From Escherichia coli (GTDB lineage: Bacteria > Pseudomonadota > Gammaproteobacteria > Enterobacterales > Enterobacteriaceae), in assembly GCF_044324875.1 (NCBI RefSeq), contig NZ_CP172185.1: DNA of 64,000 bases, one strand, 5' to 3'. A program made the translations under genes and the position numbers. Under the pieces are notes generated by a model. The model worked only from the letters and a program-made list of their open reading frames with translations. It was not told the DNA's origin and ran no database searches. Positions 11,976 to 15,888 of the stretch are shown here, piece by piece (positions within the stretch are counted from its first letter, which is position 1; every line of letters begins with the position of its first letter).

Positions 11976-12854
11976 TTAGAATAATTTTTTTGACCAGCCG
12001 AGCTTGGTGCTTAATGTATTGAAATAACTGTAATCTTTCGGATGAATCAGATTCAGATGGTAATCACAGCGACGAATCAGGACATCTTCACCTTCCTGAA
12101 TCGGCAGTGCTATCTGGCTGTCGCAACTGATTTCCAGGTCGTTACGGCGATGCGAAAAACGCAGACGGATCGTGCTGCTGCTGTTTATCACCAGCGGTCG
12201 CGCTGACAACGTATGCGGGAACATGGGCACCAGGGTAATCGCATCCAGAGAGGGTGTCAGAATAGGACCGCCCGCAGAGAGGGAATAGGCGGTGGAGCCT
12301 GTTGGCGTCGAAATAATTAGTCCATCAGATCGCTGAGAAAACGCAAAGATCTCGTCGATATACACTTCGAACTCAATCATATGCGCCACTTTGCCTGGAT
12401 GAAGCACCACTTCATTTATCGCGGTGCTGATGCGTTTCTGGCAATCTTGCTGACAGACTTGCGCTTCCAGCAAAAAACGTTTCTCGCTTATGTAGTGACC
12501 TTCCAGCACATCGGCTAATTGTTGCTGGGCGTTATCGGGGTCAAGGTCAGTCAGGAAACCCAGGTTGCCACGGTTGATTCCAATAACTTTAATATCGTAA
12601 CGGGCGAGCGTGCGCGCCGCGCCCAGCATATTACCGTCGCCACCAACGACTACCGCGAGATCAGCCAGTTGCCCAATCTCCGCGAGCGTGCCAGTTTTCA
12701 CATTCTTCAGTTGCAGTTCGTGAGCGATTTGTTGCTCAACGATGACCTCGTAACCTTTTGTGCACAGCCAGCGGTAGAGCATTTCATGTGTTGTCAGTGC
12801 AGTGGGGTGCCGTGGGTGTCCCACAATGCCAATACACTTGAAATGATTATTCAT
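11976..12854 (-). CDS. nadK: NAD kinase
   Basis: 292 aa starting [14 protein letters not shown]; GGDG motif present. The ORF track start at 13031 is an upstream in-frame extension. Confidence 0.9.
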
Positions 12855-12902
12855 TTTTCCGAGGTCCTTGTTGCGAAGATTGATGACAATGTGAGTGCTT
12901 CC

Positions 12903-12931
12903 CTTGAAACCCTGAAACTGATCCCCATAAT
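12903..12931 (+). promoter_or_regulatory. Sigma-32 (heat-shock) promoter of grpE
   Basis: CTTGAAA at 12903-12909 and CCCCATAAT at about 12923-12931, about 45 nt upstream of the grpE ATG; matches the sigma-32 consensus CTTGAAA / CCCCATNT. Confidence 0.6.
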
Positions 12932-12951
12932 AAGCGAAGTTAGCGAGATGA

Positions 12952-13569
<618 letters not shown>

Positions 13570-13591
13570 TTTCTGCTTTCGTAATAATTCA

Positions 13592-13621
13592 CGGCCCTGC
13601 ATGCGAATGCAGGGCCGTTTT
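13592..13621. terminator. Rho-independent terminator between convergent grpE and yfjD
   Basis: Perfect 11-bp stem CGGCCCTGCAT / ATGCAGGGCCG with GCGA loop, followed by TTTT. Confidence 0.65.
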
Positions 13622-13623
13622 CG

Positions 13624-14910
13624 TTACTCCGCCACACTCTCGCGCAGCGGTTTCACAGGAAAAACTTTTACCTGCTTAATCATATTGTCCTGTACGTCGA
13701 GAATATCAATATCGTACTCGCCAATACGCACGCGGGTGCCTGCGACAGGGATCTCTTCCAGTGCCTCAAGAATGACGCCATTAACCGTGCGGGCATCATC
13801 TTCCGGTAGATGCCAGTTAAAGGCTTTGTTGATTTCCCGCACGTTGGCAGTGCCATCAATAATCACCGAACCGTCGTTTTGCGGAGTGACTTCTTCGGCA
13901 AGTGTTGGCGACATCGACGTGGTGAAATCACCAACTATCTCTTCCAGAATATCTTCAACCGTCACCAGCCCCTGAATGTCTCCATATTCGTTGACGACCA
14001 GGCCGACTTTCTTTTTGTTGCGCTGAAACTTCACCAACTGCGTGCTGAGGGGCGTACCTTCCGGGACAAAATAGATCTCGTCCGCGGCGCGCAGCATGGT
14101 TTCTTTGGTGAACTCTTTTTTCTCCGACATCAACCGCCAGGCTTCACGTACTCGCAGCATACTGATGGCGTCGTCCAGCGAATCACGGTAGAGCACGATG
14201 CGCCCGTGAGGTGAGTGGGATAGTTGGCGCAGAATCGATTTCCAGTCATCGTTGATATCAATACCGATAATTTCACTGCGCGGCACCATGATGTCATCAA
14301 CGGTCATCTTTTCCAGATCGAGCACAGACAGCAGCATATCCTGATTGCGACGGGAAATTTGTGAGCGCGACTCATGCACGATAGTGCGCAACTCTTCTTT
14401 GCTCAAAGAGCCGCTAACCACGATATCGGTTTTGATACCCATCATGCGCATCAGCATACGGGTGATAGCATTCAGCAACCAGACCAGCGGCATCATCAAA
14501 ATTTGCAGCGGAGCCAGCAGAAAACTACTCGGATAAGCGACTTTTTCCGGGTACAGCGCGGCAATGGTTTTCGGCAATACCTCAGCAAAAACCAGTACGA
14601 CAAAAGTCAGCACACCAGTCGCAATTGCCACGCCCGCATCGCCGTACAAACGCATCCCAACAATAGTGCCGAGCGCGGAGGCAAGAATATTGACCAGGTT
14701 ATTGCCGATTAATACCAGGCTTATCAGGCGGTCTGGCTTACGCAGCAATTTTTCGACGCGCTTGGCCGAGCGATTACCCTGTTTCGCCATATGTCGCAGA
14801 CGATAGCGGTTGAGGGTCATCATTCCGGTTTCGGACCCGGAAAAATAGGCTGAAATGACCACCATGATGATCAGAATAATGATCAACGTAGTAGTAGAAA
14901 TGTGTTCCAG
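13624..14910 (-). CDS. yfjD: CNNM/CorC-family inner membrane protein YfjD (DUF21 + CBS pair + CorC_HlyC)
   Basis: Body is the ORF-track ORF 13624-14886 (TTG start). I extend 8 codons to CTG at 14908-14910 because a perfect AAGGAG sits 6 nt upstream of it; the start codon is uncertain (see findings). Confidence 0.75.
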   Translation of the reverse strand: MEHISTTTLIIILIIMVVISAYFSGSETGMMTLNRYRLRHMAKQGNRSAKRVEKLLRKPDRLISLVLIGNNLVNILASALGTIVGMRLYGDAGVAIATGVLTFVVLVFAEVLPKTIAALYPEKVAYPSSFLLAPLQILMMPLVWLLNAITRMLMRMMGIKTDIVVSGSLSKEELRTIVHESRSQISRRNQDMLLSVLDLEKMTVDDIMVPRSEIIGIDINDDWKSILRQLSHSPHGRIVLYRDSLDDAISMLRVREAWRLMSEKKEFTKETMLRAADEIYFVPEGTPLSTQLVKFQRNKKKVGLVVNEYGDIQGLVTVEDILEEIVGDFTTSMSPTLAEEVTPQNDGSVIIDGTANVREINKAFNWHLPEDDARTVNGVILEALEEIPVAGTRVRIGEYDIDILDVQDNMIKQVKVFPVKPLRESVAE

Positions 14911-14930
14911 GGGAAACTCCTTTTCTGGGT

Positions 14931-15722
14931 TTAGCTGATTAACTGCTGGACAATTCGGCTGCCGAAGTAGGCCAGTGTCAGAATGACTGCACCCGCAACG
15001 TTAAACCAGACGACGCGACGTCCACGCCATCCTTCATGATAATGTCCCCACAGCAGCACAATATAGACAAACCACGCCACGATAGAGAGCACGGCCTTGT
15101 CGATATTTTCCATGCTAAATAAGTTGTGCATGTAGAACAGGCCAGTGCAAAGCGTGAGCGTTAGCAGCACCACGCCAATCTGCGTGATGTGGAACATTTT
15201 ACGCTCGATACTCATTAATGGCGGCATTTCCTGGTTAAACGCCAGCTTCTTGTTCTTCAGTTGGTAATCAATCCACGCCAGTTGCAGCGCGTACAGGGCG
15301 GCGATAATCAGCGTGGCATAGGAAAAGAGCGATAAGCCAATGTGCACCAGCATCCCAGGCGTTGCTTCCAGATGAGTGATGTATTCATTGGGCATGAAGG
15401 TCGCCAGCGCCAGGTTGATAAGCGCAAAGGCATAGACAATGGGTAGCAGCAACCAGCCACGATTGCGAGAAGCCACAATGGTCATTACCGTACAGATCAT
15501 CAAACTGACCAATGAACCAACGTTCAGCAGGCTGAGGTTTTGTCCGCTATCACCGTCGGGCAGGATGCGGGCTTCCAGAGCGATTGCGTGGCAGACCAGC
15601 GCAATGACCGCAGAAATAATAGCCATGCGCCGCCAGCCGCCGTTTTTTTGCAGCAGACCGGGAACAATCAGCGCAAGACTGACGGAGTAGGCGACAAGCG
15701 CGAGCAGAGCAAAAACGGGCAT
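14931..15722 (-). CDS. ypjD: Inner membrane protein YpjD (cytochrome c assembly-like family)
   Basis: 263 aa starting MPVFALLALVAYSV; polytopic membrane protein. The ORF track start at 15797 is an upstream extension. Confidence 0.8.
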   Translation of the reverse strand: MPVFALLALVAYSVSLALIVPGLLQKNGGWRRMAIISAVIALVCHAIALEARILPDGDSGQNLSLLNVGSLVSLMICTVMTIVASRNRGWLLLPIVYAFALINLALATFMPNEYITHLEATPGMLVHIGLSLFSYATLIIAALYALQLAWIDYQLKNKKLAFNQEMPPLMSIERKMFHITQIGVVLLTLTLCTGLFYMHNLFSMENIDKAVLSIVAWFVYIVLLWGHYHEGWRGRRVVWFNVAGAVILTLAYFGSRIVQQLIS

Positions 15723-15888
15723 AGTGATGTCGACAGTTTGAGCAATAAGAAAGAGAAGCAGTATAGCGTCAGGTGAACGCTGCTCCAACCGTTGCATAAC
15801 AACAAAGACGCCTTCATGTTATACTGCGGCAAAATACTGATGATGTGTCGCGATTGCGGCCAACCGTTTCCACCCCAGGCGAGAGACA

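What the first reader, a model, noticed from the sequence alone, without database searches (positions are those of the whole stretch)
14884..14925. yfjD start: perfect Shine-Dalgarno positioned for a CTG codon, with the first conventional start (TTG) 8 codons downstream
On the minus strand the sequence reads AAAAGGAG-TTTCCC-CTG GAA CAC ATT TCT ACT ACT ACG TTG ... A perfect AAGGAG lies 6 nt upstream of CTG (14908-14910); the nearest canonical-class start in frame is TTG at 14884-14886, 30 nt after the Shine-Dalgarno, which is too far for normal initiation. Either translation initiates at the rare CTG codon, or this strain carries an ATG-to-CTG change at the start codon that could lower expression of this CNNM/CorC-family membrane protein.
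Basis: seen in the sequence. Interest (0 to 1): 0.3.

Follow-up and report, generated by a model that had tools for sequence, protein, structure and literature searches.

The report
Known CTG start codon of yfjD
The E. coli membrane-transporter gene yfjD does begin at a rare CTG codon behind a strong ribosome-binding site, but this was already shown experimentally, is in the reference annotation, and is present in 5425 of the 5426 E. coli genomes searched, so it is not a peculiarity of this strain.

Summary
On the minus strand, AAGGAG (14922-14917) is followed by a 6-nt spacer, CTG (14910-14908), seven codons, then in-frame TTG (14886-14884).

The CTG is the real yfjD start and is already known. 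EcoGene 3.0 (PMC3531124) reports that start-codon mutagenesis with protein fusions confirmed it. Mutating the formerly annotated TTG at codon 9 had no effect. RefSeq, including K-12 MG1655 b4461, starts the 428-aa CDS at this CTG.

The "ATG-to-CTG change in this strain" alternative is excluded. The C is present in 5425 of 5426 complete E. coli genomes, and no ATG, GTG or TTG variant exists.

Across 79 Enterobacteriaceae species, residues 2-10 are conserved through synonymous changes. Conservation stops at the start position, and codon 9 is TTG in only 7.

One side result may be new. The start position is CTG in 36 species, TTG in 30, GTG in 13 and ATG in none. CTG nearly always comes with a full AAGGAG, whereas TTG and GTG come with weaker AAGGAA/C/T. 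Nine of 11 distant orthologs also lack ATG.

Verdict: real feature, already known, low interest.

The parts
14917..14922 (-). Shine-Dalgarno sequence AAGGAG of yfjD
   Evidence: Read directly. It lies 6 nt upstream of the CTG. It is invariant in the E. coli, E. albertii and Salmonella sequences aligned. Duplex energy with the 16S 3' end is -8.2 kcal/mol.
14911..14916 (-). 6-nt spacer TTTCCC between the Shine-Dalgarno sequence and the start codon
   Evidence: The spacer is 6 nt in 33 of 36 CTG-type species.
14908..14910 (-). CTG initiation codon of yfjD
   Evidence: This is the first base of the RefSeq CDS in strain 7/2, an O16:H48 strain, K-12 MG1655 b4461, AST85 and ChlosBP-23-1. It was confirmed by mutagenesis according to PMC3531124. 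The C is present in 5425 of 5426 E. coli genomes.
14887..14907 (-). Codons 2-8 (E H I S T T T), the part of the protein that only the CTG start can encode
   Evidence: In 79 species, residues 2-7 are invariant or nearly so, yet each is written with 2-4 different codons. The triplets upstream are scrambled, and 60 of 79 loci have an in-frame stop within 8 triplets upstream.
14884..14886 (-). TTG at codon 9, an internal Leu codon and the formerly annotated start
   Evidence: Mutating it had no effect on expression (PMC3531124). It is TTG in only 7 of 79 species; the others have CTG, CTC, CTA, CTT or TTA. No Shine-Dalgarno-like sequence precedes it.
14863..14865 (-). ATG at codon 16, an internal Met codon that automatic gene callers wrongly choose as the start
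   Evidence: Logan and ENA gene calls for E. coli-like contigs begin MVVISAYF... (P0002, P0006, P0007, P0010, P0011). No Shine-Dalgarno-like sequence precedes it.
13624..14910 (-). yfjD coding sequence: 428 codons plus stop, a CNNM / CBS / CorC_HlyC transporter
   Evidence: Pfam finds CNNM at 8e-54, CBS at 1e-8 and CorC_HlyC at 2e-19. NCBIfam equivalog NF008604 scores 866.7 bits against a cut-off of 475 and aligns from residue 1. An identical protein, WP_010723175.1, is in RefSeq.
14931..15722 (-). ypjD (cytochrome c assembly family), the upstream gene of the same transcription unit; its stop TAA is 14931-14933
   Evidence: RefSeq annotation mapped onto the window. Pfam Cytochrom_C_asm at 4e-48. 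No terminator-like site lies between ypjD and yfjD.
13591..13618 (.). G+C-rich hairpin with T tracts between the convergent genes yfjD and grpE; likely the terminator that ends the ypjD-yfjD unit
   Evidence: Terminator scan: 12-bp stem with 8 G-C pairs. This is a consensus match only.

Best explanation
The CTG at 14910-14908 is the genuine initiation codon of yfjD, the second gene of the ypjD-yfjD unit. yfjD encodes a CNNM/CorB-type inner-membrane transporter.

Proposed mechanism: the 30S subunit is positioned by pairing of the full AAGGAG with the 16S rRNA 3' end, 6 nt upstream. Initiator fMet-tRNA reads CUG with a first-position C-U mismatch. The protein therefore starts fMet-Glu-His-Ile-Ser-Thr-Thr-Thr-Leu.

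CUG initiates at roughly 1-2% of AUG in reporter systems. The codon would therefore hold YfjD synthesis low relative to the mRNA, and the strong Shine-Dalgarno sequence would partly offset this.

Shown in the literature: the CTG is required for expression and TTG codon 9 is not. Shown here: this is the annotated start, the base is fixed in E. coli, and coding-type conservation begins exactly at this codon.

Inferred: decoding as fMet, the low-output role, sensitivity to IF3, and any contribution from ribosomes terminating at ypjD 20 nt upstream.
For: 1. [quoted passage not shown]

2. Annotation: the RefSeq CDS is 1287 nt and begins at this CTG in 5 of 5 records inspected, including NC_000913.3 b4461. 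The NCBIfam equivalog NF008604 aligns from residue 1.

3. No alternative start: no canonical or near-cognate codon lies in frame between the upstream stop at 15003 and the CTG.

4. Population: the C is present in 5425 of 5426 complete E. coli genomes, and no ATG, GTG or TTG allele was found.

5. Comparative: in 79 Enterobacteriaceae species the homologous codon is CTG in 36, TTG in 30 and GTG in 13. Residues 2-10 are conserved with synonymous variation. The upstream triplets are scrambled and carry an in-frame stop within 8 triplets in 60 of 79 loci. Codon 9 is TTG in only 7.

6. Ribosome-binding site: AAGGAG sits at a 6-nt spacing. 32 of 36 CTG loci have a Shine-Dalgarno duplex of -8 kcal/mol or stronger, against 0 of 43 TTG/GTG loci.

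7. Efficiency: CUG gives 1-2% of AUG (bioRxiv 10.1101/063800), or 0.86% as quoted in PMC11497404.
Against: The mutagenesis is cited in EcoGene 3.0 as unpublished results (D. Dague and K.E. Rudd), with no data shown. I found no N-terminal peptide or start-site ribosome-profiling record for yfjD. TRAINSPOTTER's supplements have no entry for it, and no supplements are held for the Ribo-RET preprint.

The motif alone is not rarer than chance. The Shine-Dalgarno/start-codon compensation holds in only 7 of 9 phylogenetically independent pairs (p = 0.09). Four CTG species have a weak Shine-Dalgarno sequence.

Nothing here measures YfjD output, the identity of the first residue, or coupling to ypjD.
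Confidence: 0.93

Rival explanations
1. Translation really starts at the downstream TTG (codon 9, the old annotation) or at ATG (codon 16, the choice of automatic gene callers). On this view the AAGGAG-CTG arrangement is coincidental.
For: TTG 14886 is the first canonical-class start in the ORF. Gene callers pick ATG codon 16. AAGGAG-N5-8-CTG is expected about 1.4 times by chance in a window of this size.
Against: Mutating the TTG had no effect, while the CTG was confirmed as the start (PMC3531124). No Shine-Dalgarno-like sequence precedes either codon. Codon 9 is TTG in only 7 of 79 species. Residues 2-8 are under clear purifying selection, with synonymous changes only, and the conservation boundary falls exactly at the CTG position. 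In 43 species that position holds a canonical TTG or GTG.
Confidence: 0.03
2. This strain, or a sub-lineage of E. coli, carries an ATG-to-CTG mutation at the yfjD start that lowers expression.
For: None beyond the general rarity of CTG starts: 0.024% of annotated bacterial starts, as quoted in PMC11497404.
Against: 5425 of 5426 complete E. coli genomes have the C, and zero hits were found for the ATG, GTG or TTG alleles. K-12 MG1655 is identical here. E. albertii and Salmonella also have CTG. None of 79 Enterobacteriaceae species has ATG.
Confidence: 0.01
3. The CTG is used, but mainly by ribosomes that have just terminated at the ypjD stop 20 nt upstream (translational coupling or re-initiation), rather than by free 30S subunits recruited through the Shine-Dalgarno sequence. 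yfjD output would then be tied to ypjD translation.
For: Only 20 nt separate the ypjD TAA from the CTG, with no terminator or promoter-like site between them. The ffh / ypjD / yfjD arrangement is kept in orthologs of only 43-50% identity, often with gaps of 7-20 nt. All 9 distant orthologs that sit behind a ypjD-like gene have non-ATG starts. One of the two with ATG has no ypjD upstream, and the gene upstream of the other was not identified.
Against: A full, conserved AAGGAG at ideal spacing argues for ordinary Shine-Dalgarno-led initiation. In several Enterobacteriaceae (Raoultella, some Citrobacter, Intestinirhabdus) no ypjD stop lies within 40 nt, yet CTG plus AAGGAG is kept. No experiment bears on coupling. 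This reading complements the main explanation rather than excluding it.
Confidence: 0.25

Closest known systems
yfjD (b4461) of E. coli K-12 MG1655, CTG start as curated by EcoGene and GenBank/RefSeq
   Same: It is the same gene. The sequence from the ypjD stop through codon 16 is identical, the CDS start coordinate is the same, and the protein is 428 aa. EcoGene 3.0 calls it the second confirmed CTG start in the K-12 genome.
   Different: Nothing at the start site. The window comes from another strain: 100% identical to strain 7/2 over 401 nt, against 98.3% for a K-12-like O16:H48 strain.
hda of E. coli, the first chromosomal gene shown to start at CTG (as cited in PMC3531124)
   Same: A CUG initiation codon in a chromosomal E. 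coli gene. The earlier annotation had used a different start.
   Different: The gene and function are unrelated (regulator of DnaA inactivation). I did not examine its ribosome-binding site here.
infC and pcnB of E. coli, which have ATT starts
   Same: Near-cognate start codons of the 1-2% class. They keep output low, and for infC they make it respond to IF3. This last point is textbook knowledge, not tested here.
   Different: The mismatch is at the third codon position rather than the first. infC has a demonstrated autoregulatory loop, and nothing comparable is known for yfjD.
CNNM / CorB / MpfA family of Mg2+-linked transporters
   Same: The domain architecture is CNNM (DUF21) transmembrane domain, CBS pair and CorC_HlyC domain. 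E. coli YfjD and Salmonella CorB are placed in the CNNM phylogeny of bioRxiv 10.1101/2021.02.11.430706.
   Different: This concerns the protein's function, which was not at issue in the finding. No transport assay for E. coli YfjD was found in the library searched.

Membership tests
Bacterial genes initiated at CUG (hda and yfjD in E. coli K-12) | No canonical in-frame start codon can encode the conserved N-terminus | tested here: met
   The first ATG/GTG/TTG of the ORF is codon 9. Nothing lies in frame between the stop at 15003 and the CTG. Residues 2-8 are conserved in 79 species.
Bacterial genes initiated at CUG (hda and yfjD in E. coli K-12) | Shine-Dalgarno sequence at functional spacing (about 5-9 nt) from the CUG | tested here: met
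   AAGGAG with a 6-nt spacer. Duplex energy -8.2 kcal/mol.
Bacterial genes initiated at CUG (hda and yfjD in E. coli K-12) | Coding-type conservation begins at the proposed start and not before it | tested here: met
   Only synonymous variation at codons 2-10. Upstream triplets are scrambled, with in-frame stops within 8 triplets in 60 of 79 loci.
Bacterial genes initiated at CUG (hda and yfjD in E. coli K-12) | Loss of expression when the CUG is mutated, and no loss when downstream candidate starts are mutated | not testable with these tools
   Reported for yfjD in PMC3531124, where it is cited as unpublished results.
Bacterial genes initiated at CUG (hda and yfjD in E. coli K-12) | N-terminal residue is (f)Met, encoded at the CUG, by protein sequencing or mass spectrometry | not testable with these tools
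   No yfjD entry in the N-terminomics supplements searched.
YfjD / CorB equivalog (NCBIfam NF008604); CNNM, HlyC/CorC family transporter | Whole-protein score above the curated equivalog cut-off | tested here: met
   866.7 bits against a cut-off of 475. Residues 1-427 align to model positions 1-427 of 428.
YfjD / CorB equivalog (NCBIfam NF008604); CNNM, HlyC/CorC family transporter | CNNM (DUF21) membrane domain, CBS domain and C-terminal CorC_HlyC domain | tested here: met
   PF01595 at 8e-54, PF00571 at 1e-8 (one stretch reported) and PF03471 at 2e-19.
Strain-specific start-codon mutation (ATG to CTG) | Other strains or close relatives carry ATG at the homologous position | tested here: not met
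   0 genomes matched the ATG, GTG or TTG alleles, and 5425 of 5426 have C. 0 of 79 species have ATG.

The most novel reading that the evidence does not exclude
The rare CTG may be one state of a long-maintained 'never ATG' rule for yfjD/CorB orthologs that sit behind ypjD.

Across Enterobacteriaceae the start toggles among CTG, TTG and GTG: about 10 changes on the gene tree and none to ATG.

The weakest codon, CTG, is accompanied by an upgraded Shine-Dalgarno sequence (AAGGAG instead of AAGGAA/C/T). This would imply stabilising selection on a low, set level of transporter synthesis relative to YpjD.
Probability: 0.45. Interest if true: 0.35.

Novelty: already known. Interest (0 to 1): 0.15.

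Why it matters
For the finding as given, it matters little. It re-discovers from raw sequence one of the few curated CTG starts of E. coli.

It is a useful reminder that automatic gene callers still mis-start this gene. Logan and ENA calls begin at Met16, which removes part of the first transmembrane helix. Several distant orthologs are called from Met30/31.

The comparative side result, if it holds, gives a clean natural example of start-codon strength and Shine-Dalgarno strength being traded against each other to hold the output of an operon's second gene at a set level. It also makes yfjD a convenient native reporter for IF3-dependent start-codon discrimination.

Tried and rejected
1. mRNA structure around the start: a 100-nt fold has z = -0.61, no better than shuffles. 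There is no evidence for a structural switch.

2. Promoter and terminator scan: nothing between ypjD and yfjD. An internal promoter is neither supported nor excluded.

3. Motif statistics: AAGGAG-N5-8-CTG is not enriched in the window, so the motif alone proves nothing.

4. Start-site mapping data: the TRAINSPOTTER supplements have no yfjD entry, and no supplements are held for the Ribo-RET preprint. The MazF-regulon paper lists yfjD only in a table, with no bearing on the start.

5. The search for homologous proteins returned only relatives of 86% identity or more. It could not reach other families, so I used the 50%-representative library instead and looked up the DNA of 11 representatives.

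6. I suspected that representatives beginning at Met30/31 might hide further CTG starts. The two I examined (L086, L087) have an in-frame TTG at the expected position.

7. The naive 2x2 association of CTG with a strong Shine-Dalgarno sequence (p = 4e-18) is inflated by shared ancestry, so I rejected it as a test. The independent-pairs test gives only 7 of 9, p = 0.09.

Full report
**1. Observation**

On the minus strand:

- AAGGAG occupies 14922-14917.
- The spacer TTTCCC occupies 14916-14911.
- CTG occupies 14910-14908.
- Seven codons follow (GAA CAC ATT TCT ACT ACT ACG).
- TTG at 14886-14884 is in-frame codon 9.

The in-frame translation reads ...EKEFP-L-EHISTTTLIIIL.... The stop of the upstream gene ypjD (TAA, 14933-14931) lies 20 nt before the CTG, in a different frame. 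The nearest upstream in-frame stop is TAA at 15003-15001. Between it and the CTG there is no ATG, GTG, TTG, CTG, ATT, ATC or ATA in frame. The mechanical ORF list accordingly begins this ORF at the TTG.

The bare motif AAGGAG-N5-8-CTG is not improbable. It occurs once in the window, against 1.44 expected from shuffles. The case therefore rests on context, not on the motif.

**2. What it is**

The ORF is yfjD. Pfam finds CNNM (8e-54), CBS and CorC_HlyC domains. The NCBIfam equivalog NF008604 scores 866.7 bits against a cut-off of 475 and aligns from residue 1 of the 428-aa product. The neighbours are ffh (divergent), ypjD (same strand, upstream) and grpE (convergent).

RefSeq annotates a 1287-nt CDS whose first base is this CTG. 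This holds in all five records I opened:

- strain 7/2, which is 100% identical to the window over 401 nt;
- a K-12-like O16:H48 strain;
- K-12 MG1655 itself (b4461, 2748774..2750060);
- two divergent strains, AST85 and ChlosBP-23-1.

The literature settles the main question. EcoGene 3.0 (Nucleic Acids Res 2013, PMC3531124) has a section titled 'CTG start codon verification'. [quoted passage not shown] The underlying data are cited there as unpublished results.

**3. Is it a peculiarity of this strain?**

No. I built a 55-nt query with the C of CTG at position 28, so that every 28-nt megablast seed must span that base.

- The query hit 5425 of 5426 complete E. coli genomes, once per chromosome.
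- The same query with ATG, GTG or TTG hit nothing. This also serves as a control for the seed logic.

An alignment of the window, MG1655, the two most divergent E. coli hits, E. albertii and Salmonella enterica subsp. arizonae shows AAAGGAGTTTCCCCTGGAAC invariant. Variation is confined to synonymous sites and to the ypjD-yfjD spacer.

**4. Comparative evidence for the start**

One genome per species gave 79 usable Enterobacteriaceae loci. At the homologous position the codon is CTG in 36, TTG in 30, GTG in 13 and ATG in none.

- Residues 2-10 (E H I S T T T L I) are invariant or nearly so, while each is written with 2-6 different codons.
- The eight triplets upstream are scrambled, with 8-17 different 'amino acids' at all but one of them (4 at the triplet inside the conserved Shine-Dalgarno sequence).
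- 60 of 79 loci carry an in-frame stop within those eight triplets.
- The coding region therefore begins exactly at this codon.
- Codon 9 is TTG in only 7 species and otherwise CTG, CTC, CTA, CTT or TTA. It cannot be the conserved start.
- Neither TTG codon 9 nor ATG codon 16 is preceded by a Shine-Dalgarno-like sequence.
- Automatic gene callers nevertheless start E. coli-like copies at Met16, giving MVVISAYF....

**5. How it most likely works**

Shown: the CTG is needed for expression (literature). It is the annotated start, it is fixed in the species, and it marks the conservation boundary (this work).

Inferred from established knowledge of bacterial initiation:

- The 30S subunit is placed by AAGGAG pairing with the 16S 3' end. 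The duplex energy is -8.2 kcal/mol and the spacing is 6 nt.
- Initiator tRNA reads CUG with a weak first-position C-U pair (structural discussion in PMC11497404).
- CUG gives roughly 1-2% of AUG output in reporters (bioRxiv 10.1101/063800; 0.86% as quoted). The codon should therefore keep YfjD synthesis low.
- As a near-cognate start it should be sensitive to IF3 discrimination. This comes from my own knowledge of the infC literature and was not tested.

There is no notable mRNA structure around the start (z = -0.61). No terminator or promoter-like site lies between ypjD and yfjD. The two genes probably share a transcript, and ribosomes terminating 20 nt upstream may contribute. That coupling is possible but untested.

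**6. Side result**

*Shine-Dalgarno strength tracks the start codon.*

- 31 of 36 CTG loci have AAGGAG, and one more has GGAGG.
- 32 of 36 CTG loci have a duplex of -8 kcal/mol or stronger.
- All 43 TTG/GTG loci have AAGGAA, AAGGAC, AAGGAT or similar. None reaches -8 kcal/mol; the means are -6.1 (GTG) and -5.9 (TTG).
- On a neighbour-joining tree of the CDS with the first nine codons excluded, parsimony gives about 10 start-codon changes and 8 Shine-Dalgarno changes, with a TTG root.
- In 9 phylogenetically independent CTG versus non-CTG pairs, the CTG member has the stronger Shine-Dalgarno sequence in 7 (one-sided sign test p = 0.09). This is suggestive, not established.
- If changes at the first codon base were neutral, about a third should lead to A. 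None of about 10 did. My arithmetic for that is (2/3)^10, about 0.02.

*More distant orthologs.* I took representatives of 43-50% identity from the 50%-clustered library and fetched DNA for 11 of them.

- Start codons are TTG in 7, GTG in 2 and ATG in 2. For two of the TTG cases (L086, L087) the gene call was truncated to Met30/31, and an in-frame TTG lies at the expected position.
- All nine non-ATG cases lie directly behind a Cytochrom_C_asm (ypjD-like) gene. Three of them also have ffh called on the far side.
- Of the two ATG cases, L096 has no ypjD and the upstream gene of L091 is unidentified.
- Four of the 11 were chosen because their calls looked odd. Among the 7 chosen blind, 5 are non-ATG.
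- For comparison, about 18% of annotated starts in model genomes are non-ATG.

**7. Comparison with what is known, and novelty**

The feature is the yfjD CTG start already curated by EcoGene, GenBank and RefSeq. It is the second confirmed CTG start in K-12, after hda. It works like the other near-cognate starts of E. coli (infC and pcnB, both ATT) in being a low-efficiency codon. No regulatory loop is known for it.

Novelty: already known.

The only possibly new element is the 'never ATG, Shine-Dalgarno compensates' pattern across species. It needs a proper phylogenetic test.

**8. Limits**

- I could not find start-site profiling or N-terminal proteomic data for yfjD.
- The key mutagenesis is reported without data.
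- The gene tree is a quick neighbour-joining tree of the gene itself.
- The megablast seed argument proves invariance of the C only, not formally of the T and G. Those two bases are identical in all 85 aligned or inspected sequences.

Noticed in passing
L003-L082 (start position = match start minus 3, usually 1498-1500): In 79 Enterobacteriaceae species the yfjD start codon is CTG in 36, TTG in 30, GTG in 13 and never ATG. Parsimony gives about 10 changes on the gene tree, none of them to ATG.
   Followed up: partly
L003-L082, the 25 nt upstream of the start: Shine-Dalgarno strength tracks the start codon. CTG goes with AAGGAG (32 of 36 at -8 kcal/mol or stronger). TTG and GTG go with AAGGAA/C/T (0 of 43). 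This holds in 7 of 9 phylogenetically independent pairs (p = 0.09). The exceptions are L060, L067, L075 and L076, which combine CTG with a weak Shine-Dalgarno sequence.
   Followed up: partly
L086-L096 (orthologs of 43-50% identity from metagenomes and genomes): All nine orthologs that lie behind a ypjD-like (Cytochrom_C_asm) gene have non-ATG starts: TTG in 7 and GTG in 2. Three of them also have ffh called on the far side (L087, L088, L094). The two with ATG are L096, which has no ypjD, and L091, whose upstream gene is unidentified.
   Followed up: partly
P0002, P0006, P0007, P0010, P0011, P0085; P0131, P0158 and about 12 other representatives: Automatic gene calls truncate this protein. E. 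coli-like copies are started at Met16. About 14 of the 150 representatives are started at the conserved Met30/31, which removes the first transmembrane helix. In the two I checked (L086, L087) the likely true start is an upstream in-frame TTG.
   Followed up: partly
L085:270-300 (E. coli ChlosBP-23-1, from a Chlorocebus host): The ypjD-yfjD spacer is 9 nt longer than in other E. coli. The extra CCCCAGTAA looks like a tandem duplication that includes the stop-codon region. AAGGAG-N6-CTG is unchanged.
   Followed up: no
L008, L018, L023-L025, L032 (some Citrobacter, Raoultella, Intestinirhabdus), the 40 nt upstream of the start: No ypjD stop codon is visible within 40 nt of the yfjD start. The upstream sequence is unrelated and G+C-rich, which suggests an inserted element or a longer spacer between ypjD and yfjD. 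These loci still have CTG plus AAGGAG.
   Followed up: no
window 15722-15797, minus strand: The ypjD reading frame is open for 25 codons upstream of the annotated ATG at 15722. A further in-frame ATG lies at 15797, giving 288 aa instead of 263 aa.
   Followed up: no
window 13591-13618: A 12-bp G+C-rich hairpin flanked by T/A runs lies between the convergent genes yfjD and grpE. It is probably a bidirectional terminator.
   Followed up: no
window 11976-13031, minus strand: The ORF that contains the NAD kinase gene (nadK/yfjB) extends well upstream of the conserved MNNHFKCIG... start and overlaps the grpE region on the other strand. This is probably just an open frame and not a real extension.
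   Followed up: no
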